Made by a program: the position numbers and the translations under genes
In this document: positions 1 through 9,450 of the stretch, piece after piece
How the letters are laid out: every line of letters starts with the position of its first letter
Position numbering within the stretch: position 1 is the stretch's first letter
Notes under the pieces: generated by a model
Database searches by the model: none
Told to the model about the DNA's origin: nothing
What the model saw: the letters and a program-made list of their open reading frames with translations, nothing else
Virus record (IMG/VR): IMGVR_UViG_2711768034_000006
Location: 1 to 9,450 of that record
Reading direction: 5' to 3' (one strand)
DNA: 9,450 bases
Origin: a virus
Lineage: Duplodnaviria > Heunggongvirae > Uroviricota > Caudoviricetes

Positions 1-3
1 ACG

Positions 4-228
4 TTACGGGCTGGCAAACGGCACGATTTCGGCTGATGCCACCTCCCTGGTGCGATAACTACACAGCAGGTTCCGCCCTAGCTTGACCAGTTCCTGCTGC
101 ACGCCTGGCAGCCGGTCGCGAGCATGGTCTACCGCTTCCTGTTCAGTGGCGAAACCCTCCATAATTTCGGTTTCGGTGTAGGTGCCGTGTTCCGGGTCAA
201 AAGCAATGATATATGCGCGATAACTCAT
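4..228 (-). CDS. Hypothetical small protein (74 aa), last gene of primase operon
   Basis: ATG at 228 preceded by GAGGG Shine-Dalgarno about 8 nt upstream; 10 nt after primase stop; followed (via wrap) by intrinsic terminator; no family recognised. Confidence 0.55.
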   Translation of the reverse strand: MSYRAYIIAFDPEHGTYTETEIMEGFATEQEAVDHARDRLPGVQQELVKLGRNLLCSYRTREVASAEIVPFASP

Positions 229-238
229 GGTTTAGCCC

Positions 239-2554
239 TCAGAACGGTTTATCTTCGCCGTCACCGGCTGTTTCTGTCATCACTTCCTGTGCGTCACACA
301 GGGGCGGCATACCTGCACGCGCCATCTGCGCTTCACGTGACTGCGATTTGCCGTCAGCGTTCAGCCATTTGGCCTTATTGCGCAGAATCCAGCAGCGGCT
401 TGCCTTGCCGTGAACCTTAATCGGCCCATCAATTTGCAGCGCGCCAGCTTCTTCCATTGCGCGGCGCATGGCAGGTGTGAAGCGGCTTTCTTCACCGTCT
501 GACAGCACATTTGCAATGTCACCTTGCGTGATAACGTCAACCGGCCATGACAGCACCAGGCGGTCAGCGTTCTTCTGCGTCATCGACTTCGCAGCGCCAA
601 TCACTGACTGTTTGGCCGCGTTCATCGGCGGGCGTTCGCCAGGGTTAAAGCTGCTTATGTCGCGCTCCGCCAGGAACACAGCCACAGCGTTGATAAACTC
701 GCGGTCGTTCAGCGCAGCATAGAGCGTGGCGTAAACTTCCTGCGGGCGCGGCTCTGCTTCGTGATGCACGATGCGCCAGCGGCGGTCTGTGTCGTCAATC
801 GGCAGCGCGTTAAGGTGGTTACTGAACACCAGCCAGCGCATGGCGTTGTGTTCACGGTGCTGGCGGCCATACTTCGGGTTCACGTCACGATATTCAGCCG
901 TAACGATGCTGCGCAGTTTGTTGGTGTGACTGTAGCGGTTTTCGCTCACCCCGGCCTGAATCTCGTCAACGATGGCCAGAACGCGCCCAGCTAACTGGCC
1001 GTTGAACTGGCTATCAAGCAGGTTAGGCAGGTCCACGTTCGGTGCCACATAGCCACGCCATACGCGCGCCAGGACGCTGGCCAGCCAGTTGCGGCCTGTG
1101 CCGGTTTTGTTGGCCACGTGCAGCCAGCCATAGTGCGGAAGTTCGCCTGGCTTCTGCTCCAGGTGTGCCAGCCAATCCAGGAATTTTTCGCGCTCTATGG
1201 CATCCGGGAATAGGTAGGCTACATGGTCCAGAAACAGGCTGATGCCTGTCGTGGCTTCTTTGCGTTCGAGCGGTCGCCAGGTGTTGATTGCAGGGCGTCC
1301 ATCCGGGTCACGGCAGAAGATGCCCGCGCCAGGGTGGAATGTCCGAGTGATAACCGTTTTGCGCTGCGGGTCTTGTTGCCACAGAACGGCGGTAGGCACC
1401 GGCTTTTTGCGCTCGTCGCTCAGTGTCATTGACGCTGACGTAAGCTGGCGGAATTCCTTCCAGGTCATAAACATTGTTGTGTCATTGACGCTGGCCACCA
1501 TTTCACCGCTTGCGATCCACACCATAGATTCCAGCATTTCTTCGCGGGACATCGACGGCGGCAGGATGCTGACTGTTTCCGGCTGTTGCAGGCGGGCGTT
1601 TTCTTCCTGCTGCAAACGGCGGCGGGTTTCTTCCGCCACGTCAACCACGCCACCAGCGCGCGCATTGTTAAGCGCAGCCAGGACCGCATCAGCACCTTGC
1701 TCCTGGTGCAAATCATTAACATCTTTGCCTTCTGCCAGGTCGGACGGCAGGGTGGCAACCGCAAAGCCAGTGCGGAAAGCGTCAGATTCTTTGCCACGGT
1801 CAGGGACTATGACCGGAACAGCACCAGCGGCCTTGATGATGTCGGCAGCCTTGCGGATGTTGCCAGCACCAAAGGAAACCACGGCAGCGCAGCCGGTGAC
1901 GGCGTTCACGCTCCAGGCGTGGCCGATACCTTCCACGATGTAGGCTTTCTGGCCTTTCTCCAGCTTTCCAGCCGTAAATGTGCCATCCATAGGGCAGCCA
2001 CTGGCGTTGCGCTTCTCTCCTTTGTTTGGCCCTACGAACTGTAAGGAAACCAGGTTTCCGCTTGATGACCAAACAGGGATTGCCAGCCAGCCTTTCAGGC
2101 TTTTGCTTCCGCTCCTGATGTCCTGCGTAACAACGCGCAGGCCGTCAGGCTTGCCCCACTTGCGCATGATGTACGGGTGTTCAGCGGTCGCAGGTTCTGA
2201 CGCAGCCCAAATGTCAATCGGGTTGTGTTTGGCTTTTGGCTTCTCAATAGGTGCCTTTTCCGCCCTGGCTGTTGGGTCATTCCACTGCGCCACGTTACGC
2301 GCCAGCCAGAACAGCGTGTTTTCAGTCACCGAACCGTCAATCTTAAAGCTACCCCAGGCGGAACGCACATCCGCTTCATTGCGGTAGTTGGTTGCGCCCT
2401 GGCTCCAGTTATGGAAGTCATCGAATGACAGGCCAGCAGCCTTTGCAGCGCAGCCAATGCGTGCCCAATCACGGCGTGAACAGTCGTTCGGCAGGGATTC
2501 CAGGGCGCTAAGTGCGCGCTCCATGTTGGTGATTTGGTCGTATGCCAGACTCAT
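239..2554 (-). CDS. Primase / SF3 helicase, phage P4 alpha-like replication initiator (771 aa)
   Basis: Long ORF; N-terminal Trp-rich region; DnaG/Toprim-like EGxxxA motif (IVEGIGHAW, aa 206-214); helicase-like region with Walker B-like LAIVDEIQ (aa 524-531) and SF3 motif C-like LVFSNH (aa 575-580); ATGA start/stop overlap with upstream orf77; GGGGG Shine-Dalgarno. Confidence 0.85.
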   Translation of the reverse strand: MSLAYDQITNMERALSALESLPNDCSRRDWARIGCAAKAAGLSFDDFHNWSQGATNYRNEADVRSAWGSFKIDGSVTENTLFWLARNVAQWNDPTARAEKAPIEKPKAKHNPIDIWAASEPATAEHPYIMRKWGKPDGLRVVTQDIRSGSKSLKGWLAIPVWSSSGNLVSLQFVGPNKGEKRNASGCPMDGTFTAGKLEKGQKAYIVEGIGHAWSVNAVTGCAAVVSFGAGNIRKAADIIKAAGAVPVIVPDRGKESDAFRTGFAVATLPSDLAEGKDVNDLHQEQGADAVLAALNNARAGGVVDVAEETRRRLQQEENARLQQPETVSILPPSMSREEMLESMVWIASGEMVASVNDTTMFMTWKEFRQLTSASMTLSDERKKPVPTAVLWQQDPQRKTVITRTFHPGAGIFCRDPDGRPAINTWRPLERKEATTGISLFLDHVAYLFPDAIEREKFLDWLAHLEQKPGELPHYGWLHVANKTGTGRNWLASVLARVWRGYVAPNVDLPNLLDSQFNGQLAGRVLAIVDEIQAGVSENRYSHTNKLRSIVTAEYRDVNPKYGRQHREHNAMRWLVFSNHLNALPIDDTDRRWRIVHHEAEPRPQEVYATLYAALNDREFINAVAVFLAERDISSFNPGERPPMNAAKQSVIGAAKSMTQKNADRLVLSWPVDVITQGDIANVLSDGEESRFTPAMRRAMEEAGALQIDGPIKVHGKASRCWILRNKAKWLNADGKSQSREAQMARAGMPPLCDAQEVMTETAGDGEDKPF

Positions 2555-2784
2555 GCCGCACCCCCTGCCTTGCGCTGCATATCCAGCGCCATTTGCCAGG
2601 CGTCCACGCGGTTGAACGGGAAGCGGGTGTTCTCTGCCAGGTGCCCCAGGTAGATGGAATATTGCAGCGGGCGGCCAGACTGGATGGCCTGCTTAATCAG
2701 TTCCTGCATGATGGCCACGCACTGTGCGTGCGTCTGGCTGGTAGCAGGTTCGCGCATAAGGCGATGCAGGGTGATGATGCTCAT
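2551..2784 (-). CDS. Hypothetical small protein (77 aa), tandem paralog of orf91
   Basis: ATGA overlaps at both ends (2781-2784 and 2551-2554); GGGGGTGCG motif just upstream of ATG; shares DAW motif and AGGA C-terminus with orf91. Confidence 0.55.
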   Translation of the reverse strand: MSIITLHRLMREPATSQTHAQCVAIMQELIKQAIQSGRPLQYSIYLGHLAENTRFPFNRVDAWQMALDMQRKAGGAA

Positions 2785-3056
2785 TTCGCACCCCCGGCAA
2801 TCTGCGCCAGGACGGTGGCCACTTCGCGTTCCGCCAGTTGTTCAGCGTAGGCGTGCGCAGTGATGCGCCAGGCGTCATCTTTGTTCAGGCGGTAGGCTTT
2901 GTTCCCGCGCATTACAATGCGGTAGGTTGCTTCCGCTGTGTCGGTGATGCTTGAACCGTTGCGCAGCATAGCGTCAGCGAATTTGAACGCAGCATCACAG
3001 CGAGTTTCAACGGTTCTGGTTTTCAGGATGGCGTCAGCCAGGTCGTGCAATTTCAT
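2781..3056 (-). CDS. Hypothetical small protein (91 aa), first gene of primase operon
   Basis: ATG at 3056 with GAGGAA Shine-Dalgarno about 8 nt upstream; translationally coupled to orf77; no family recognised. Confidence 0.55.
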   Translation of the reverse strand: MKLHDLADAILKTRTVETRCDAAFKFADAMLRNGSSITDTAEATYRIVMRGNKAYRLNKDDAWRITAHAYAEQLAEREVATVLAQIAGGAK

Positions 3057-3064
3057 TTCGCATT

Positions 3065-3083
3065 CCTCAATATTTCGTTGAGG
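3065..3083. promoter_or_regulatory. Perfect inverted repeat CCTCAA-N7-TTGAGG overlapping the orf91 ribosome-binding site
   Basis: Read directly; on the mRNA the GAGG Shine-Dalgarno lies inside the potential stem. Confidence 0.35.
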
Positions 3084-3122
3084 CTGCGCTAAAATCGGTG
3101 GCTCAATGAAGGGGGGTTTAAC

Positions 3123-3151
3123 TTGCTAAAGGTAAAGGTCTTTGCTAGTAT
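3123..3151 (+). promoter_or_regulatory. Candidate sigma70-like promoter on plus strand (TTGCTA-17-TAGTAT), antisense to operon leader
   Basis: Hexamers with 17-nt spacer read from sequence; 4/6 match each to consensus; lies about 40 nt upstream of a plus-strand terminator-like hairpin. Confidence 0.25.
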
Positions 3152-3188
3152 TTTTCCTAGTCAGGCCGCTAACCTAGACTTTCATTAA

Positions 3189-3229
3189 GCCCCCTGGATT
3201 GTTCGCGCAGTCCGGGGGTTTTCCTTTTT
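3189..3229 (+). terminator. Plus-strand intrinsic terminator-like hairpin (CCCCC..GGGGG stem) followed by TTTTCCTTTTT
   Basis: Five consecutive G-C pairs (3190-3194 with 3214-3218) then T-rich tract 3219-3229; no plus-strand CDS upstream, so it would end a short antisense RNA. Confidence 0.35.
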
Positions 3230-3252
3230 GTGGCGGTGTGCAAGCGCCACAA
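3228..3252. promoter_or_regulatory. Perfect 8-bp inverted repeat TTGTGGCG-N9-CGCCACAA at predicted transcription start of primase operon (operator candidate)
   Basis: Read directly; lies immediately downstream of the candidate -10 element; related ATTGTGGC motif recurs at 8163-8170 upstream of operon 2. Confidence 0.35.
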
Positions 3253-3257
3253 TTCGA

Positions 3258-3285
3258 ATGATACCCTGCAATCCGGTTTCTGCAA
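3258..3285 (-). promoter_or_regulatory. Candidate sigma70 promoter for orf91-orf77-primase-orf74 operon (TTGCAG-16-TATCAT on minus strand)
   Basis: -35 at 3285..3280, -10 at 3263..3258; about 200-nt leader to orf91 start. Confidence 0.35.
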
Positions 3286-3354
3286 GCTATTTTGCCAAAA
3301 TATAGGCCGAAAATTCATAAATAATTTCAGGCATTTAAAAAGGTAAATGTCGCT

Positions 3355-3384
3355 CATAATCCCACATAATCCGGCATAATCGGT
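3355..3384. repeat. Three direct repeats of CATAATC at exact 10-bp spacing (3355, 3365, 3375)
   Basis: CATAATCCCA / CATAATCCGG / CATAATCGGT read directly; helical phasing suggests a protein-binding array; near-identical array at 8220-8249. Confidence 0.5.
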
Positions 3385-3402
3385 TAATAAATGCTAACCA
3401 TA

Positions 3403-3431
3403 AAAAAAAGCCAGAGTTTTCACCCAGGCTT
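3403..3431 (-). terminator. Candidate intrinsic terminator downstream of tape-measure gene
   Basis: Minus-strand RNA forms an imperfect GC stem (3430..3411) followed by eight U (plus-strand A8 at 3403-3410), about 27 nt after TMP stop. Confidence 0.4.
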
Positions 3432-3457
3432 TGGTTGCAGTCATCAATTTCATTTCA

Positions 3458-5734
3458 TTACGGTGCTGCTAATCCGTCATTCATCATGCTACGATTTCGG
3501 ATTCCTTGCTGCTGTTTCAGCTTCTGCGCCACCTTATTTGCCAGCGCATCTTCATTCATGCCAGGCTCGGCCTTCACGTTGATGGTGTACTGGTCGTTCG
3601 TGTTCACCGTTGTGTTGCCGGTGCGGTTAGCCAGTGCCGGTGAAGGCAAGGACGCACCAGGGGCGGCGGTCGCTGCTGGCTGGCTGCTTTCGTCTTCACC
3701 GAACGGATTGCTAAAGAAATCTTTGGTTTTCTGCCACGCACCACCAGCAACATCAGACACGGCGTTTTTAAACTCCAGTGCCTTGTTGGTCAGGTTGCCG
3801 ATGTTGTCAGACACCCACAGAATCTTATCAATCAGGAACGTGATCGGTGCGGTCACAAGCTCGATGCCAGCCGCCAGGGTCTTACCGAACGTCATCCCCA
3901 TTTTACCGGCCTTATCCAGTTCCTCGCCGCTGTATTTGACCGGTTCGGTCAGTGACGTGAACCAGTTGAAAACCGTCTTAACCGCAGCACCCACACCATC
4001 AATGACAGGTTTCAGCGGCCCCATGCGTTCATAAAGGCGGCTCAGAGCTTCGCTAAGCGGTTCCAGCCCGGATTTGATGCCTTCACCCACTCCGCCAAAG
4101 AAAGCCTTCACACCGGCCCAATGGCGGTAAATCTGATAACCTGCCAGCGCCAGGCCAGCTACGGCAGCACCCACGCCAGTGGATATGAACGCCGCACCAA
4201 CGGCACGAATGCCGGTAGCCACCGCAGGCAGGCCACGGGTGCTGGCCAGAACGGCAGATGCGTTCATGCGGGCAAACAGGCTGGACATCTGCAACACGCC
4301 ACCTTTCAGGAACGTGAACGCAAAGCCAGCGGCGAACGTCGCCACACGTAGTGCCACCAGTGCACTGGAACCAATAACCACTGCTTTGGTCACGGTAGGG
4401 TATTCGCGCGCCAGTTCGGCAACCTTGCCGATAACCGGGCCAACGGTAGCCAGAACGCCGTTGAATGCTGGCAGCAGCACTGTGCCGATCGTGACGCCCA
4501 GGTTAGACACACGGTTGTTGAAAATCTTAAGCTGTGCCGACGTTTTGGCGGTGGCTGCCTCATATTCAGCCTGCATAGAACCGGCATATTTGGTCTTGTC
4601 TTTGACCATGTCCAGATTCTTTTGGTACGTATCAAGCTGTGTCAGCATTGGTGCGATAGCGCCAATCGATTCCTTACCAAACAGTTGCGAAAGCGTTGCC
4701 GCCTGCATGTGTTTTGGCAGCTTGCTGATCTTGGACAGGATGACGCGGATTGTTTCATCGGCGTTCAGTTGCATTGATTTTGCAACCTGCTTGGATGTGA
4801 AGCCAAGCTGTTTAAACGCTTCACGCTGTGACTTCGTGGCGGATGCGCCAGCGGTCAGGGATAGCAGCAGGTTTTTAATACCGGTGGCCGCAATCTCATT
4901 CTGCACGCCCATACCGCGCAGCGTTGCACCCATCGCAGCGATAGAACCGGAAGCTGCACCAGCGACGCTGCCAAGCGGCCCGATGCGCTGCGTGATTTCC
5001 AGGATGTCTTTGGCTGATGCGGCGGTGTTGTTGCCCAGGTAGTTGATCTTGTCAGCCAGAACGTTCATCTGGTCCTGCGTCATCCCGAAGGCGGCGCGCA
5101 TCTCTGCCATTGCCTGGCCTGCCTGGTCGGCGCTGACGTCAAAAGCCACACCCATTTTGATGGCCGATTCAGCAAACTTGGTTAGTTCGCTGGTGGCGAT
5201 GCCTGATTGAGCACCAGCGGCAACAATCTTGCCGATTTCGTTGGCTGCCATCGGCATTTTGGTTGACATATCCTGGATAGCCTGGCCCATCTTAACCAGG
5301 CCGTCAGGGGTTTCGAAGTTGGCAACCTTGCGGATATCTGCCAGCGTATCTTCAAAATCCATAGCCTGTTTGATCGGTACAGCTACCGTTGCGCCAAGTG
5401 CGACAGTCCCCAGGATTCCTTCTTTGTAGCCTTGACGCTTCGCCAGGTTGCGTTCGCGGGCATCCTCCACGCGTTTCAGGCGTTCGGTGGCAGAACGAAG
5501 GCGTTCAACCTGCCCGACAACCGTTTGATAGCGGTCCTTCATGCGGGAGAATATCGCGCTATCCTGGCCATAACGCTTCATTGCTTCATTTAACTGGCGC
5601 TGTTCGCGCGACAGCTTAGAGATTGCGCTACCAATCTCGACGGTATTTTTCTTTACAGTTCCAAATGCACCACGAAGGCTGCCGGAAACGGCCCCACCAA
5701 TCGTGATTTTTGCATTTAACTTCTTGTTGGCCAT
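3458..5734 (-). CDS. Phage tail tape-measure protein-like (758 aa)
   Basis: Coiled-coil, A/G/Q-rich N-terminal half typical of tape-measure core regions; long central hydrophobic Gly/Ala-rich segment (about aa 440-540); size typical of siphovirus tape-measure proteins; ATG at 5734. Confidence 0.75.
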   Translation of the reverse strand: MANKKLNAKITIGGAVSGSLRGAFGTVKKNTVEIGSAISKLSREQRQLNEAMKRYGQDSAIFSRMKDRYQTVVGQVERLRSATERLKRVEDARERNLAKRQGYKEGILGTVALGATVAVPIKQAMDFEDTLADIRKVANFETPDGLVKMGQAIQDMSTKMPMAANEIGKIVAAGAQSGIATSELTKFAESAIKMGVAFDVSADQAGQAMAEMRAAFGMTQDQMNVLADKINYLGNNTAASAKDILEITQRIGPLGSVAGAASGSIAAMGATLRGMGVQNEIAATGIKNLLLSLTAGASATKSQREAFKQLGFTSKQVAKSMQLNADETIRVILSKISKLPKHMQAATLSQLFGKESIGAIAPMLTQLDTYQKNLDMVKDKTKYAGSMQAEYEAATAKTSAQLKIFNNRVSNLGVTIGTVLLPAFNGVLATVGPVIGKVAELAREYPTVTKAVVIGSSALVALRVATFAAGFAFTFLKGGVLQMSSLFARMNASAVLASTRGLPAVATGIRAVGAAFISTGVGAAVAGLALAGYQIYRHWAGVKAFFGGVGEGIKSGLEPLSEALSRLYERMGPLKPVIDGVGAAVKTVFNWFTSLTEPVKYSGEELDKAGKMGMTFGKTLAAGIELVTAPITFLIDKILWVSDNIGNLTNKALEFKNAVSDVAGGAWQKTKDFFSNPFGEDESSQPAATAAPGASLPSPALANRTGNTTVNTNDQYTINVKAEPGMNEDALANKVAQKLKQQQGIRNRSMMNDGLAAP

Positions 5735-5755
5735 AATAATTGTGCTCTCAAGGAA

Positions 5756-5962
5756 TTAATTAAGTAAATTTTCTGCAAGGGTGTGTTCACCGATTGCCCG
5801 CAAGGCGGCAGCGGCCAGTTGCAGGGCGCATTCGGTGCGGTAGTCTCGCTGTTTCTGCATTCCCTCCGCTGTTTCGCAAACCATAACTTTGGGCAGGACC
5901 ATATCCACCAGTTCAGGCCAGGGGTTTGTTCCTTCCGGTTTTGTGTGAATACGGTCCAGCAT
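5756..5962 (-). CDS. Hypothetical small protein (68 aa)
   Basis: ATG with AAGGGGG Shine-Dalgarno 6-7 nt upstream; immediately upstream of tape-measure gene; no family recognised. Confidence 0.45.
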   Translation of the reverse strand: MLDRIHTKPEGTNPWPELVDMVLPKVMVCETAEGMQKQRDYRTECALQLAAAALRAIGEHTLAENLLN

Positions 5963-5971
5963 GGTGCCCCC

Positions 5972-6181
5972 TTATGCGGTTTTGCTTTCTGTTGGTTTGT
6001 CGTTGGCGGTGATGTCGCGCATCCCAAACGTGATACCTTTCCAGGACTTCATCGCGCCGCTAAGGTTCTTGATCGCCAACTTTTGTGCGTCGGTCAGTTG
6101 GCTTGCGTTGTTCTTCGTCATCTTGTCGGCTACGCCGATGACGTTCAGAACGGCTTCATAAATGTTGTTGTTGGTTGCCAT
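5972..6181 (-). CDS. Hypothetical small protein (69 aa)
   Basis: ATG at 6181, GGAG about 10 nt upstream; 9-nt gap to orf68; no family recognised. Confidence 0.45.
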   Translation of the reverse strand: MATNNNIYEAVLNVIGVADKMTKNNASQLTDAQKLAIKNLSGAMKSWKGITFGMRDITANDKPTESKTA

Positions 6182-6183
6182 TC

Positions 6184-6501
6184 TTATGCGCTCCGCACCA
6201 GGATAGCGCCGCGCTTCACTGCCTGGCGCTTGGCCCGTTCACCGGAACTGATGCGGCTGGATGGTTGCCACTTCTTGCGTTCCAGGGTCGATGCGTGGCT
6301 TTCCGCTTCGTTGCGCATGGCGCGACCGGCTTCATCGGTCATGTGTTCGAATGCGTTTAAACGGTTGCGAAGGCTGGCCAGCAGGTCGGCTGCTTCGTAG
6401 CTGATTGGGTTTTTCTCTGAAATGGTTTGGAAACGCTTTGTTTCGCTAAGGATCAAACGCGCTTCTTCTTTCATTGATTCGTACAGGTCATGGTTTTTCA
6501 T
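6184..6501 (-). CDS. Hypothetical protein (105 aa from internal ATG; ORF-track start at 6633 probably a spurious extension)
   Basis: N-terminal 44 codons of the long ORF are W/S/T/P/H-rich and not protein-like; MKNHDLYE start at 6501 gives a helical, basic-tailed protein; no clear Shine-Dalgarno at either start. Confidence 0.4.
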   Translation of the reverse strand: MKNHDLYESMKEEARLILSETKRFQTISEKNPISYEAADLLASLRNRLNAFEHMTDEAGRAMRNEAESHASTLERKKWQPSSRISSGERAKRQAVKRGAILVRSA

Positions 6502-6715
6502 AGTATTGGCCGCTAACAATAGTTGTTGATGATTAAGTGAGTGCGCGCTTTTAGGTGACAGGTGCGGCGCAACCGGTGTGGAATTAGTGGTGGTTTTGAC
6601 CGTCCAGGATGACCACCAACCTGGTTCCAGCATCCATCGTCTGAGGAACGATGAAGGTTAAATTTGGCCGGTTATTTTGGGCACAGGGAACCGGTGAAAC
6701 CTGTATTCTTGGCCA

Positions 6716-6880
6716 TTATTTGCCGTTCAGCCCGCTACTCAGAAACTTTTCAATCACCTGGCTGCGTGAAGGGCGGATGCCTGTTCTGCGTTCCAGTTTG
6801 GCTTGCTCTCTTTCGACCTGGCGCACCAGGTCAGGGGCGAGGCGTACCGTTACGTGCTGGCGTGTTTCTTGTCGTTTCAT
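6716..6880 (-). CDS. Ribbon-helix-helix (Arc/CopG-like) DNA-binding protein, 54 aa
   Basis: My own translation of the minus strand: MKRQETRQHVTVRLAPDLVRQVEREQAKLERRTGIRPSRSQVIEKFLSSGLNGK; beta-strand/helix/helix pattern resembling Arc; below the ORF-track size cutoff; ATG 3 nt after orf104 stop. Confidence 0.7.
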   Translation of the reverse strand: MKRQETRQHVTVRLAPDLVRQVEREQAKLERRTGIRPSRSQVIEKFLSSGLNGK

Positions 6881-6883
6881 GGC

Positions 6884-7198
6884 TTAATACCTGCTCATCC
6901 AGCTTTCGCGCTTCTGTTTCGGGCGCTGCTCGCGGTAGTGACTGCGCACCAGGGAGGCGAGGTAATTCACGGCGCGTTCAATCTGGTACTGCTTAAGCTC
7001 CGGGTAAGCCTTGCGAATCCATTTTTCAGCAGCGTCATCGCTGTAGATGAATCCTGACCAGCCAACCGGCTGCACTACGATGCGCGGTGTGTTTTCATCA
7101 CCGTGGCGCACATACATGGCCACACCTTCGATAGCTGCCAGGATTTCACCCGGCAGGGCAGCGCGCTCCGCTGCCGCTTTTTTGCTGCCCCACCACAT
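6884..7198 (-). CDS. Hypothetical protein (104 aa; ORF-track start at 7204 is TTG)
   Basis: ATG at 7198 sits 2 nt after the upstream TGA; AAGG Shine-Dalgarno about 7 nt upstream; no family recognised. Confidence 0.5.
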   Translation of the reverse strand: MWWGSKKAAAERAALPGEILAAIEGVAMYVRHGDENTPRIVVQPVGWSGFIYSDDAAEKWIRKAYPELKQYQIERAVNYLASLVRSHYREQRPKQKRESWMSRY

Positions 7199-7200
7199 GA

Positions 7201-8085
7201 TCAAGCCTTCCAGAACATAGTTGAGTCAGGCACCAGTGCGGATGCGTTCACCCACACAACGATTTCAACGGCACCATTCAGCACGCGGCGGGCGGTGACG
7301 CGGATTTCATCATCCAGGGCAACGGCTGCATTGCCGAAAGCGCCAATGATTGTGCTGGAAGTCTGGCCGCTGATTTCAGCGCGTACACCGTAGGCACGCA
7401 GAACGCCGTCTTGCAGTTCCAGGCCGGTGCAATCACCGCCAACAATGGCTTTAACTTCATCAAAGCGCAGGTTTTTGGCTGCAATCTTCTGCGCCACTGC
7501 GGTGAATGACGGGCTGGTAAGGGTTTCCGCTGCGCTTTCCAGGTGGTTCAGCAGCACGAAGTCAGCCAGATCGGCAATACCGCGTTCAATGGCGGTGTTG
7601 ACCGCTTCCAGCACTGTATCGTCAGCGAATTCGTGTTTCAGTTGCTGGCGGGTCAGGGTGTAGCCAACGCCGTAAGCCGGTGCGGTGTTGTGGTCGAATG
7701 CTGCAACCATGTACGGCTTGCCGCTCATGCTGATTTCTTCGCCGTCAGTAACTTTGGCGAACGCACCAGGGCGGATGACAACGAAGCGGTCAGCCACTTC
7801 GAGGCCAGTCGTTGCACCAGTCTGGCCAGTCGGCTGCGTGGTCATCGGGCCAGGAATGCGGATGATTTCAGCGCCTGCCTGTGCCACCAGCGAACGTTCA
7901 GCCAGAACAGCGTTGAAGGTGGTCTGCTTGCCACCTTTCGGGGTCAGCACGTCATTCATGGACAGGTAGCGAACTGCTGCCGGTTCCATAGGGATAAATT
8001 GAGTAATATCACCGTTGCCATCAGTGCGAACATGGCCGCCCTGGTGGTTCAACGCGTCGTTGATAAGTTGAGATAAAACGTTCAT
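7201..8085 (-). CDS. Beta-rich structural-like protein of unknown family (294 aa), first gene of operon 2
   Basis: ORF-track start at 8169 is TTG with a non-protein-like leader; ATG at 8085 has GGAG 8-9 nt upstream; A/G/T/V-rich composition like capsid or tail proteins; no motif recognised. Confidence 0.65.
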   Translation of the reverse strand: MNVLSQLINDALNHQGGHVRTDGNGDITQFIPMEPAAVRYLSMNDVLTPKGGKQTTFNAVLAERSLVAQAGAEIIRIPGPMTTQPTGQTGATTGLEVADRFVVIRPGAFAKVTDGEEISMSGKPYMVAAFDHNTAPAYGVGYTLTRQQLKHEFADDTVLEAVNTAIERGIADLADFVLLNHLESAAETLTSPSFTAVAQKIAAKNLRFDEVKAIVGGDCTGLELQDGVLRAYGVRAEISGQTSSTIIGAFGNAAVALDDEIRVTARRVLNGAVEIVVWVNASALVPDSTMFWKA

Positions 8086-8219
8086 TAAAAATGCTCCGGT
8101 TGTTGTGCAATAAATCGTCTGGAATGACTTAAAGATATACAGTAACCAGACCGAACACAATAGCCACAATGTGAGCTTTTTAATGTAAAATCAGTAACTT
8201 ATAACCCTGAATACTTGCA

Positions 8220-8249
8220 AATAACCAGGCATAATCCGGCGTAATCGAT
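8220..8249. repeat. Second copy of the phased 10-bp repeat array (AATAACCAGG / CATAATCCGG / CGTAATCGAT) upstream of operon 2
   Basis: Shares the 17-mer CATAATCCGGC[A/G]TAATCG with 3365-3381. Confidence 0.45.
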
Positions 8250-8379
8250 ATTTACACATCTTTACAATTCAGCATGTGTAAAACGTGTTCGCTTTATTTT
8301 GCAATCGCGCACGTATGGTGCCAGTGCTTTGATAAGGTTCACATAAATGATTGATTTACTTGACGTAATCATAAAGTGA

Positions 8380-8570
8380 GTTTTGGAGGGGCACGCACAA
8401 CGCGAATTACGCGGGACCAATGCCCCCGCCCTGTACTGCCGCCGAGGAGGACCCTTCGATTTTTGAGGCAGGCAGGCGGCCAGGCGGTGCGCGCAAGGTC
8501 CATTATGTTAAATCGCGGAGTTTGCAGGCAGAAAGAAGCACCAGGAAGGTGCTGGCAGGCGAACGGCGCA
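8380..8570. other. GC-rich non-coding island with nested short hairpins (candidate cos/pac site or structured RNA)
   Basis: Abrupt GC-rich stretch inside an AT-rich intergenic region; inverted repeats GGGGCA/TGCCCC (8388-8426), CGCG-aatta-CGCG (8401-8413), AGCACC-aggaa-GGTGCT (8537-8553); both overlapping ORFs translate to non-protein-like sequence. Confidence 0.3.
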
Positions 8571-9065
8571 TAATCTGACATATTCCGCGCGCTTTCAGCC
8601 CGTATTCACTCAGGCTTATTGTTGCGATATGTGCAACGTTCTGGCTGTTTACTGAACAGCTACTGTTTGAACGCAAAACAAGGCTGAAAGGCTCGTTTCC
8701 TGTAGTTACATCATACTTCTGTATGTTGTACCTATTCCGGCTGCTGCTTTGGTTAGACGTGAAAAAGCGTGGTTACGAATGAGCGGACCACCACCAGCAC
8801 CCATGCCGCCCAGGCACCCCATCCGGTTACAACGCTGAATTGAGTTGTAACCGTGTTATGTTTCTGAAAAATAACAAATTTCGTGCAATCGGTTACAACG
8901 GTTACGCCAAGTTCATAAAGTTTGGAAAAAGCACTATGGGTATATAGGAATATACGAATTTCTTTTTTTTACTAATCTGTTGTAACCATTGTAACCGGAA
9001 TGGGTAAAATCATTAATATTCAGTGGCTTGCGTGGTTACAACGCCGGTTACAACACCGATTTTGC

Positions 9066-9092
9066 GTTGTAACCGTTGTAACCGTTGTAACC
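9066..9092. repeat. Three perfect tandem copies of GTTGTAACC
   Basis: Read directly. Confidence 0.9.
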
Positions 9093-9103
9093 GTAGTAGG
9101 CAT

Positions 9104-9129
9104 AAAAAAGCCCCGGCAGATGCCAGGGC
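9104..9129 (-). terminator. Intrinsic terminator ending the primase operon
   Basis: Minus-strand RNA GCCCUGGC-AUCU-GCCGGGGC (8-bp stem with one G-U, 4-nt loop) followed by UUUUUU, 25 nt after orf74 stop. Confidence 0.55.
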
Positions 9130-9151
9130 GGTCAGAACAAAAATTGTTGTA

Positions 9152-9450
9152 ACGTTACGGGCTGGCAAACGGCACGATTTCGGCTGATGCCACCTCCCTG
9201 GTGCGATAACTACACAGCAGGTTCCGCCCTAGCTTGACCAGTTCCTGCTGCACGCCTGGCAGCCGGTCGCGAGCATGGTCTACCGCTTCCTGTTCAGTGG
9301 CGAAACCCTCCATAATTTCGGTTTCGGTGTAGGTGCCGTGTTCCGGGTCAAAAGCAATGATATATGCGCGATAACTCATGGTTTAGCCCTCAGAACGGTT
9401 TATCTTCGCCGTCACCGGCTGTTTCTGTCATCACTTCCTGTGCGTCACAC
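9152..9450. repeat. Wrap-around duplicate of window positions 1-299
   Basis: Identical sequence; the ORF track lists the same 74-aa protein at 4..228 and 9155..9379. Confidence 0.9.
9155..9379 (-). CDS. Second copy of the 74-aa hypothetical protein (same locus as 4..228 via wrap-around)
   Basis: Identical translation in ORF track. Confidence 0.55.
   Translation of the reverse strand: MSYRAYIIAFDPEHGTYTETEIMEGFATEQEAVDHARDRLPGVQQELVKLGRNLLCSYRTREVASAEIVPFASP

What the first reader, a model, noticed from the sequence alone, without database searches (positions are those of the whole stretch)
1085..1114. Helicase domain has a non-canonical P-loop (NKTGTGRN in place of GxxGxGK[ST])
Walker B-like and SF3 motif C-like sequences are present, but the expected Walker A lysine is Arg488 and the following Ser/Thr is Asn489 (codons GGC CGC AAC read from the sequence). 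Lys-to-Arg at this position usually abolishes ATP hydrolysis, so the helicase may be inactive or use an atypical nucleotide-binding mode.
Basis: partly seen in the sequence, partly recalled or inferred. Interest (0 to 1): 0.5.

Follow-up and report, generated by a model that had tools for sequence, protein, structure and literature searches.

The report
Arginine-type P-loop in plasmid primase-helicase
The only recognisable replication protein of this 9-kb enterobacterial plasmid has an arginine where almost all ATP-driven motors have an essential lysine; this is an invariant trait of hundreds of related phage and plasmid helicases rather than a defect, so they probably bind and hydrolyse nucleotide in an unusual way that nobody has tested.

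Summary
The 771-aa ORF at 239..2554 (-) is a PriCT-2/Toprim primase fused to a D5/NrS-1-like SF3 helicase (Pfam DUF5906). Its P-loop reads N482-K-T-G-T-G-R488-N489 (1088..1111, minus strand). Alignment to the solved NrS-1 helicase and a confident AlphaFold model place R488 on the Walker A lysine and N489 on the Ser/Thr position. No other P-loop exists in the domain.

The "inactive helicase" reading is poorly supported:
- Arg is present in all 241 alignable homologues. It is encoded by all six Arg codons.
- More distant plasmid and prophage relatives also carry it (GxGRG, GxGRT, GxGRS).
- Walker B Asp-Glu, sensor-1 Asn, the hairpin Lys and the double Arg finger are invariant.
- The protein is the only recognisable replication gene of a complete 9,151-bp circular plasmid. 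Sister plasmids carry a canonical GKT VapE primase-helicase in the same slot.
- The closest solved relative, NrS-1, has Gly instead of Ser/Thr and is an active helicase.
- A natural Lys-to-Arg P-loop in Nostoc Get3d keeps ATPase activity.

Best reading: a functional, lineage-wide Arg-type P-loop, which I found described nowhere for SF3 helicases. Whether it hydrolyses NTP is untested. I class it as a new variant of a known kind, of moderate interest.

The parts
239..2554 (-). Primase-helicase gene (771 aa): PriCT-2 + Toprim_3 + DUF5906/SF3 helicase. It is the only recognisable replication gene of the element.
   Evidence: ORF list and translation. Pfam PF19263 at 60.9 bits, PF08707 at 55.3 bits, PF13362 at 22.8 bits, the last below its cut-off. 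PHROG DNA primase families.
1088..1111 (-). P-loop N482-K-T-G-T-G-R488-N489, with Arg at the Walker A Lys position and Asn at the Ser/Thr position.
   Evidence: Codon table. Alignment to NrS-1 GTGKG. AF2 strand-loop-helix. Arg in 241/241 homologues.
455..1537 (-). Helicase domain as modelled (aa 340-700), with a D5/NrS-1-like SF3 fold.
   Evidence: AF2 pLDDT 91.7, pTM 0.86. Foldseek best match is NrS-1 CTR 6k9c (E 5e-18, TM 0.68), followed by SaPI5 Pri-Rep, PriRep1, MPXV E5, VACV D5 and ASFV PrimPol.
962..979 (-). Walker B L526-A-I-V-D530-E531.
   Evidence: Translation. D530 and E531 invariant in 113 homologues. The strand at 526-530 is in the model.
866..880 (-). Beta-hairpin N559-P-K561-Y-G. 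K561 aligns with NrS-1 K525, the 'KN' DNA-binding hairpin.
   Evidence: K561 is invariant in both Arg-type and Lys-type relatives.
818..832 (-). Motif C / sensor 1: L575-V-F-S-N579.
779..787 (-). Arg finger D590-R591-R592, which aligns with NrS-1 R555/R556.
1688..1945 (-). Toprim primase domain (aa 204-289). It aligns with the P4 alpha Toprim; the DxD motif reads D252-R-G254.
   Evidence: BLASTP against P4 alpha, 27% identity, E 1e-10. Alignment of homologues.
2300..2512 (-). PriCT-2 domain (aa 15-85).
   Evidence: Pfam PF08707, E 8.5e-15.
8825..9154 (.). Cluster of 11 GTTGTAACC iterons in both orientations. This is the candidate origin on which the protein would act (inferred).
   Evidence: Pattern search: 11 matches against 1.7 expected, all inside this stretch. 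Repeat families D3, I1, I9 and I10.

Best explanation
The gene encodes the replicative primase-helicase of a 9,151-bp circular plasmid of Enterobacterales. Its layout resembles P4 alpha: a Toprim primase followed by a hexameric D5/NrS-1-type SF3 helicase.

Its nucleotide site is intact but built on a lineage-specific Arg-type P-loop, x-x-x-G-x-G-R-N. In this reading the guanidinium of R488 takes over the beta/gamma-phosphate contact of the Walker A lysine. N489 (Gly, Ser or Thr in sister clades) sits where the Mg-ligating Ser/Thr normally sits. E531, N579 and R591/R592 of the neighbouring subunit carry out hydrolysis as in other SF3 helicases. The site therefore binds NTP and most likely hydrolyses it to drive origin opening and unwinding at the adjacent GTTGTAACC iterons.

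Shown: the position of R488, its invariance, conservation of the rest of the catalytic set, the fold, and the plasmid context. Inferred: phosphate contact by Arg, Mg contact by Asn, hydrolysis, the hexamer, and use of the iterons.
For: - Position: NrS-1 alignment, AF2 topology, Foldseek.
- Invariance: Arg in 241/241 homologues, including 150 representatives of 50%-identity clusters. In 53 genome loci retrieved with patterns that do not contain the motif, 48 helicase P-loop matches all have Arg. The codons are CGC 26, CGT 9, CGG 7, CGA 2, AGA 3, AGG 1.
- The trait extends to 28-37%-identical plasmid and prophage proteins with GxGRG, GxGRT and GxGRS. It is present in 100 of 102 alignable relatives of those proteins. 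These include Prim-Pol+DUF5906 proteins of Salmonella and E. coli prophages, in clusters of 353 and 176 members.
- D530, E531, K561, N579, R591 and R592 are invariant. These match the residues shown by mutation to be needed in NrS-1: K525, R555 and R556.
- Function in context: the window is a complete circle. Near-identical records are deposited as plasmids of E. coli and Proteus. No other replication gene is recognisable.
- Sister plasmids share the backbone at 94-97% nt identity. In the same slot they carry a PriCT-2/Toprim/VapE protein with a canonical GEQSLGKTS.
- Precedents: NrS-1, with GKG and no Ser/Thr, is an active (d)NTPase and helicase. Nostoc Get3d naturally has Arg for the Walker A Lys and hydrolyses ATP only about 4-fold more slowly than the Lys-type Arabidopsis protein (PMC10248533).
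Against: - No member of the Arg-type clade has been studied biochemically, as far as my searches show.
- From my own knowledge of classical work (RecA K72R, Rad51 K-to-R): engineered Lys-to-Arg changes in P-loop motors usually keep binding but slow hydrolysis by orders of magnitude.
- The Get3d precedent is a slow SIMIBI ATPase, not a ring motor.
- Conservation of Walker B and the Arg finger is also expected for a protein that only needs ATP-dependent assembly.
- The host DnaB could do the unwinding.
- The AF2 model has no ligand and I had no coordinates, so the geometry of R488 and N489 was not examined.
Confidence: 0.6

Rival explanations
1. The site is an ATP-binding switch rather than a motor. 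The Arg-type site binds NTP tightly but turns it over very slowly. The domain would then work as an origin-binding, ATP-dependent assembly platform in the manner of DnaA, ORC or DnaC, which melts the origin, primes, and hands unwinding to host DnaB.
For: From my own knowledge, engineered Lys-to-Arg P-loop mutants typically bind but barely hydrolyse nucleotide. The natural Arg-type Get3d is slower than its Lys-type relative. Conservation of Walker B Asp and the Arg fingers fits nucleotide-dependent oligomerisation as well as catalysis. The hosts all have DnaB.
Against: Known switch-type AAA+ initiators keep the Walker A Lys (my own knowledge), so a switch role does not explain Lys-to-Arg. The catalytic Glu E531, sensor-1 N579 and the DNA-translocating hairpin K561 are invariant. 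In sister plasmids the slot is filled by a canonical GKT helicase. Related proteins NrS-1 and P4 alpha (the latter from my own knowledge) are true helicases.
Confidence: 0.27
2. The helicase domain is a dead pseudo-ATPase. It would be kept only as a hexameric scaffold or DNA-binding module for the primase, with no nucleotide binding.
For: Three of the canonical Walker A positions deviate: G1, K7 and S/T8.
Against: The G-x-G-R core, Walker B DE, sensor 1 and the Arg fingers are invariant over hundreds of clusters. Pseudo-ATPases normally lose these residues (my own knowledge). Arg keeps the positive charge needed for phosphate binding.
Confidence: 0.08
3. The motif is an artefact or has been mislocated. 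Either it is a sequencing error or pseudogene, or the real Walker A lies elsewhere in the protein.
For: A G735-K-S tripeptide exists in the C-terminal tail.
Against: An identical protein is found in a cluster of 54 sequences on 8 contigs and in deposited plasmids. The motif is conserved in 241 homologues. GKS 735-737 lies outside the modelled helicase domain (aa 340-700). The model has a complete beta1-loop-alpha1 at 476-498.
Confidence: 0.01

Closest known systems
[quoted passage not shown]
   Same: It is the best sequence match (E 7e-14) and best fold match (E 5e-18, TM 0.68). Shared elements: the beta1-P-loop-alpha1 core, the hairpin Lys (K525 to K561), sensor-1 Asn and the double Arg finger (R555/R556 to R591/R592). 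Both lack Ser/Thr after the basic residue, with Gly in NrS-1 and Asn here.
   Different: NrS-1 has the canonical Lys (447-GKQGTGKG-454). K453A abolishes dCTPase and unwinding. Its Walker B is N-E rather than D-E. It is fused to a Prim-Pol, not a Toprim primase. Identity is about 20%.
Satellite phage P4 alpha protein (primase-helicase-origin binding)
   Same: Both are a single multifunctional replication protein of a small (about 10 kb) element. Both have a Toprim_3 primase (27% identity, E 1e-10) followed by a DUF5906 SF3 helicase. Both elements have short iterons near the gene.
   Different: P4 alpha has a canonical GPGGSGKS. It also has Zn-ribbon, D5_N and Pox_D5 domains that Pfam does not detect in the query. 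The query has PriCT-2 instead. The helicase domains are barely alignable (hhalign E 0.036). The query matched no NCBIfam model at all, so no P4-family model either.
SaPI5 Pri-Rep / PriRep1, poxvirus D5/E5 and ASFV PrimPol helicases
   Same: They share the D5-like SF3 hexameric helicase fold (Foldseek E 1e-7 to 1e-5) and the fusion of primase and helicase.
   Different: Identity is 10-15%. I did not check the Walker A sequences of these proteins. They have different N-terminal and C-terminal domains.
VapE-type primase-helicase of sister plasmids pSCU-121-2 and pR17.0904_9.3k
   Same: It occupies the same slot in the same plasmid backbone (94-97% nt identity over window 2538-8787). It is of similar size (762 aa) and also has a PriCT-2/Toprim N-terminus.
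   Different: It belongs to a different helicase family (VapE/VirE) with a canonical GEQSLGKTS. It is only 28% identical to the query, and only in the N-terminal part.
Nostoc Get3d (SIMIBI ATPase) with a natural Walker A Lys-to-Arg
   Same: Arg naturally occupies the canonical Walker A Lys position, and ATP hydrolysis is retained: kcat 0.28 per min against 1.10 per min for the Lys-type AtGet3d, with the same KM (PMC10248533).
   Different: It belongs to an unrelated P-loop class, is a dimeric chaperone-type ATPase, and keeps Ser/Thr and a second 'deviant' Lys. The authors describe the Arg as drift in some cyanobacteria, not as a family-wide invariant.

Membership tests
D5/NrS-1-like SF3 helicase (Pfam DUF5906, PF19263) | Match to the family profile above the curated cut-off | tested here: met
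   60.9 bits against a cut-off of 27.6, residues 483-592.
D5/NrS-1-like SF3 helicase (Pfam DUF5906, PF19263) | ASCE core fold similar to solved members | tested here: met
   AF2 pLDDT 91.7. Foldseek match to NrS-1 CTR, E 5e-18, TM 0.68; D5, E5, Pri-Rep and ASFV PrimPol follow.
D5/NrS-1-like SF3 helicase (Pfam DUF5906, PF19263) | Walker A GxxxxGK[ST] (PROSITE PS00017 [AG]-x(4)-G-K-[ST]) | tested here: not met
   The motif is N-K-T-G-T-G-R-N. The first Gly, the Lys and the Ser/Thr are all replaced.
D5/NrS-1-like SF3 helicase (Pfam DUF5906, PF19263) | Walker B hhhhDE | tested here: met
   LAIVDE 526-531, invariant D and E.
D5/NrS-1-like SF3 helicase (Pfam DUF5906, PF19263) | Motif C with sensor-1 Asn, and an Arg finger after it | tested here: met
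   S578-N579 and R591-R592. They align with NrS-1 R555/R556.
D5/NrS-1-like SF3 helicase (Pfam DUF5906, PF19263) | B' beta-hairpin with a DNA-contacting Lys | tested here: met
   K561 aligns with NrS-1 K525. It is invariant in both Arg-type and Lys-type relatives.
D5/NrS-1-like SF3 helicase (Pfam DUF5906, PF19263) | Hexameric ring, DNA-stimulated NTPase, 3'-5' unwinding | not testable with these tools
   This needs purified protein. Only a monomer could be modelled.
P4-alpha-type phage/plasmid primase | Match to curated NCBIfam primase/helicase models | tested here: not met
   No NCBIfam family at E <= 0.1.
P4-alpha-type phage/plasmid primase | Zn-ribbon + Toprim + D5_N + DUF5906 + Pox_D5 architecture | tested here: not met
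   P4 alpha has all five domains. The query has only Toprim_3 (below its cut-off) and DUF5906, plus PriCT-2.
P4-alpha-type phage/plasmid primase | Toprim catalytic Glu and DxD | tested here: inconclusive
   E208 is present. DxD reads D252-R-G254, against DRD in P4 alpha and DND in most relatives.
Arg-type P-loop clade of DUF5906 helicases (proposed here) | G-x-G-R at the end of the P-loop, with intact Walker B, sensor 1 and Arg finger | tested here: met
   241/241 close homologues and 100/102 alignable relatives of outlying members. All-Arg monophyly was found in only 28 of 100 NJ bootstraps, so a single origin is unresolved.

The most novel reading that the evidence does not exclude
A large radiation of phage, prophage and plasmid SF3 replicative helicases would be true NTP-driven ring motors that work without the Walker A lysine. 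They would use Arg (GxGR[N/G/S/T]) as the phosphate clamp, and this would be the first natural lysine-less P-loop helicase clade. A further, speculative step is that the Arg was selected because it cannot be acylated or otherwise modified as a Lys can, for example by acetyl-phosphate-dependent acetylation of the kind I recall for DnaA K178. I recall that case from memory and did not check it here.
Probability: 0.5. Interest if true: 0.7.

Novelty: new variant of a known kind. Interest (0 to 1): 0.55.

Why it matters
The Walker A lysine is treated as the near-universal signature of P-loop NTPases, and Lys-to-Arg is the standard way to make an "ATPase-dead" mutant. Here Arg is fixed in a whole clade of replication proteins: at least 150 clusters at 50% identity among the best matches, and probably several hundred. 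They occur in Alpha-, Beta- and Gammaproteobacteria, their prophages and small plasmids, and they evidently still do their job.

If these proteins hydrolyse NTP and unwind DNA, they give a natural system for asking what the lysine is really needed for. They would also show how a motor active site can be re-wired.

There is a practical point too. Motif-based annotation, such as PROSITE PS00017 or "GK[ST]" filters, will miss or mislabel these helicases as degenerate.

Tried and rejected
- Another Walker A elsewhere: the only candidate is G735-K-S in the C-terminal tail, outside the modelled helicase domain. Rejected.
- A compensating residue specific to Arg-type proteins. His479, nine residues upstream, is common but is replaced by Met or Leu in some Arg-type members. 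E568 is Glu in 22 of 24 Arg-type and 0 of 10 Lys-type sequences.
- K483 inside the loop as a substitute lysine: that column is variable (N/H/K/R/S/Q). Rejected.
- Single origin of the Arg type: an NJ tree with the two motif columns masked groups most Arg-type sequences, but all-Arg monophyly appears in only 28 of 100 bootstraps. Unresolved.
- Word-indexed search with the pC277_3 protein gave only 2 hits and was uninformative.
- Searches for a characterised member. The deposited-phage collection holds only four induced E. coli temperate phages of the vB_EcoM-683R1 group with an Arg-type helicase. RefSeq complete E. coli genomes hold no full copy of this gene.
- Eight literature searches found no paper on this motif in SF3/DUF5906 helicases. 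The library lacks most subscription journals, so this is not proof of absence.
- Pfam, PHROG, PADLOC and PDB sequence searches of the other ORFs found nothing apart from the tape measure protein.
Full report
**1. What is at the coordinates.**
The longest ORF of the window runs from 2554 down to 239 on the minus strand and encodes 771 aa.

Pfam finds three domains:
- PriCT-2 at aa 15-85.
- A weak Toprim_3 at aa 204-289.
- DUF5906 at aa 483-592, 60.9 bits against a cut-off of 27.6.

PHROGs calls the protein a DNA primase. NCBIfam has no match.

**2. Is it the Walker A position?**
Four lines of evidence agree.
- The best solved relative is the helicase domain of phage NrS-1 polymerase (6K9C/6K9E, E 7e-14). 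The alignment puts query G-T-G-R-N on NrS-1 G-T-G-K-G.
- The NrS-1 paper defines 447-GKQGTGKG-454 as its Walker A. Lys453 binds a phosphate in the crystal, and K453A, K525A, R555A and R556A impair dCTPase and unwinding (PMC7102993). In the same alignment, query K561 matches K525 and R591/R592 match R555/R556.
- An AlphaFold2 model of aa 340-700, built on 60 homologues (pLDDT 91.7, pTM 0.86), has a strand at 476-481, a loop at 482-487 and a helix starting at R488. The Walker B strand is at 526-530 and the sensor-1 strand at 573-578.
- Foldseek returns NrS-1 CTR first (E 5e-18, TM 0.68). SaPI5 Pri-Rep, PriRep1, MPXV E5, vaccinia D5 and ASFV PrimPol follow.

The only other GK[ST]-like string, G735-K-S, lies in the C-terminal tail outside the modelled helicase domain.

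**3. It is a clade-wide trait, not a lesion.**
- Every one of 111 DUF5906-containing hits of the word-indexed search carries G-x-G-R-N-W.
- The exhaustive HMMER search of 1.84 billion cluster representatives found 9,513 proteins at E <= 1e-3, 3,206 at <= 1e-10 and 476 at <= 1e-30.
- All 150 listed representatives have E < 1e-80. Pooled with the earlier hits, 241 of 241 alignable sequences have Arg in this column. The next residue is Asn in 238, Gly in 2 and Ser in 1.
- 53 loci from GTDB species genomes were retrieved with peptide patterns that do not include the motif. They come from Beta-, Gamma- and Alphaproteobacteria, and all 48 helicase P-loop matches in them have Arg. The codons are CGC 26, CGT 9, CGG 7, CGA 2, AGA 3 and AGG 1. 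The amino acid has therefore been held through synonymous turnover, including codons one transition away from Lys.
- Twenty IMG/VR viral contigs, many of 45-48 kb, carry it too. One retrieval pattern there contained the motif, so that set is not independent.

**4. The Arg type reaches much further than the query's clade.**
More distant relatives at 28-37% identity also have Arg, with a different following residue:

| Protein | P-loop end |
|---|---|
| E. coli phage vB_EcoM-683R1 | GTGRGW |
| Plasmid pRHB04-C06_4 | GVGRTT |
| K. pneumoniae pC277_3 | GSGRSK |
| P0251 | GTGRGT |

A profile of these four found 107 proteins. Of 102 alignable at the motif, 100 have Arg: GTGRGW 65, GTGRNW 18, GVGRTT 12, others 5. 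Only the two weakest hits have GTGKG or NTGKS. The hits include 751-aa Prim-Pol+DUF5906 prophage proteins of Salmonella, E. coli, Citrobacter, Klebsiella, Xenorhabdus and Arsenophonus, in clusters of 353 and 176 member sequences.

Lys-type relatives at similar distance include NrS-1 (GTGKGL) and plasmid pKP-2683-1-6.5 (GTGKGF). They also include phages RDJL3, JS26, PW916, SAP012, RSP and OLIVR4 with G-x-G-K-[S/T/G].

An NJ tree with the two motif columns masked groups most Arg-type sequences together. All-Arg monophyly is recovered in only 28 of 100 bootstraps, so one origin is plausible but not shown.

Arg-type helicase domains are found fused to several primase modules: PriCT-2/Toprim, Prim-Pol, zf-CHC2, Zn-ribbon or PF22763. 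They also occur with no primase module at all.

**5. The rest of the active site is intact.**
In 113 homologues the following are invariant or nearly so:
- D530 and E531 (Walker B).
- K561 (hairpin).
- S578 and N579 (motif C).
- D590, R591 and R592.

These residues are also shared with the Lys-type relatives. The only columns that separate the Arg type from the Lys type in my 34-sequence sample are the Arg itself, E568, F620 and G639. His479 is frequent but not universal. I could not inspect model coordinates, so a possible R488-E568 contact is untested.

**6. Context.**
Window 1-299 equals 9152-9450 exactly. The window is therefore a complete 9,151-bp circle with an assembly overlap.

Near-identical records are deposited as non-mobilizable plasmids:
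- Proteus mirabilis pW47-1, 8,955 bp.
- E. coli pECQ4552_IHU03, 17,382 bp, whose annotation shows nearly every gene twice (a head-to-tail dimer).

Apart from a phage tail tape measure gene (3458..5734, PF10145, phrog_28 E 1.5e-129), no other ORF has a recognisable function. The primase-helicase is thus the only recognisable replication gene. A cluster of 11 GTTGTAACC repeats at 8825-9154 (1.7 expected by chance, none elsewhere) lies just beyond the rep operon and is a plausible origin.

Three sister plasmids share window 2538-8787 at 94-97% nt identity. In two of them, pSCU-121-2 and pR17.0904_9.3k, the same slot holds a 762-aa PriCT-2/Toprim/VapE protein with a canonical GEQSLGKTS. The Arg-type protein thus does the job that a canonical primase-helicase does in an otherwise near-identical replicon.

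In phage vB_EcoM-683R1, the Arg-type gene sits directly after the repressor and cro genes.

**7. Mechanism.**
The best-supported reading is a functional nucleotide site in which Arg replaces Lys as the phosphate ligand.

The Ser/Thr-to-Asn change is a lesser issue for two reasons. The position is Gly in NrS-1, which hydrolyses ATP and dNTPs and unwinds DNA. It also varies among Arg-type clades (N, G, T, S).

A natural precedent exists outside helicases. Nostoc Get3d has Arg at the canonical Walker A Lys and still hydrolyses ATP, with kcat 0.28 per min against 1.10 per min for the Lys-type Arabidopsis protein and the same KM (PMC10248533).

Against full activity stands the classical experience that engineered Lys-to-Arg mutants are hydrolysis-poor (my own knowledge). 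The main rival is therefore an ATP-binding, slow-turnover initiator that leaves unwinding to host DnaB. A dead domain is unlikely given paragraphs 3 to 6. None of this has been tested biochemically in any member I could find.

**8. Comparison and novelty.**
- By profile and fold, the protein belongs to the D5/NrS-1-like SF3 helicases (DUF5906). It fails the canonical Walker A criterion.
- It works like P4 alpha: one protein with a Toprim primase and an SF3 helicase, on an iteron-bearing small replicon. It lacks the Zn-ribbon, D5_N and Pox_D5 domains of alpha and matches no NCBIfam model. I do not file it as a P4-alpha family member.
- Databases already name such proteins "DUF5906 domain-containing" or "primase-helicase family protein", so the gene family is known.
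- The Arg-type P-loop as a lineage-wide feature was not found in eight full-text searches. That library omits most subscription journals.
- I rate it a new variant of a known kind, interest 0.55.

Noticed in passing
window 1-299 and 9152-9450: The two ends are 100% identical over 299 bp. The window is therefore a complete circular element of 9,151 bp with an assembly overlap. The small ORF at 4..228 is the same as the one at 9155..9379.
   Followed up: yes
window 8825-9154: There are eleven copies of GTTGTAACC in both orientations, some in tandem at 9-bp spacing, and none elsewhere in the window (1.7 expected). This iteron cluster next to the rep operon is a likely origin of replication, reminiscent of the P4 type-1 repeats.
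   Followed up: partly
window 3458-5734 (-): A full-length phage tail tape measure protein (758 aa; PF10145; phrog_28 E 1.5e-129; about 78% nt identity to Klebsiella phage KA2-1 and Escherichia phage ECO1230-10) sits on a 9-kb plasmid. No capsid, terminase or other tail gene is recognisable. Why a small plasmid family keeps a tape measure gene is unexplained; a satellite-like or tail-hijacking role is one possibility.
   Followed up: partly
window 2538-8787 versus L069 (CP054330.1), L070 (NZ_CP100673.1), L071 (NZ_CP083588.1): Sister plasmids of about 9 kb share the backbone at 94-97% nt identity but have a different replication cassette. In CP054330.1 and NZ_CP100673.1 it is a 762-aa PriCT-2/Toprim/VapE protein with a canonical GEQSLGKTS. 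This is a case of replicon module exchange.
   Followed up: yes
window 1793-1801 (-), aa 252-254: The Toprim DxD metal-binding motif reads D-R-G (VIVPDRGKE) in the query and its nearest relatives. P4 alpha has DRD and most other homologues have DND. The primase active site is therefore also non-canonical in this subclade. The same N-terminal module is found fused to VirE-type and other ATPase domains (P0112-P0120).
   Followed up: partly
L003 (CP077066.1, 17,382 bp): The deposited E. coli plasmid pECQ4552_IHU03 lists nearly every gene twice in the same order. It is a head-to-tail dimer of the roughly 9-kb element, or an assembly duplication.
   Followed up: no
window 3346-3382 and 8211-8247: There are two clusters of 10-bp-spaced CATAATCC-like repeats, 4.9 kb apart, each in an intergenic stretch upstream of a minus-strand gene block. 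They could be operator or second cis-replication sites, as with ori and crr of P4. The statistics are weak: 10 matches against 4.9 expected.
   Followed up: no
aa 568 (window 851-853, -): Glu568, in the strand after the DNA-binding hairpin, is Glu in 22 of 24 Arg-type helicases and never in 10 Lys-type relatives, which have Ile, Val or Ala. It may co-vary with the Arg-type P-loop. Contact with R488 could not be checked.
   Followed up: partly
L001 (ON470593.1) 1966-4227; proteins P0254, P0263: Widespread 751-753-aa Prim-Pol+DUF5906 proteins of Salmonella, E. coli, Citrobacter and Xenorhabdus prophages carry GTGRGW. Their clusters have 353 and 176 members, and they are annotated as 'DNA primase' or 'bifunctional DNA primase/polymerase'. 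The gene sits directly after the repressor and cro genes in phage vB_EcoM-683R1.
   Followed up: partly
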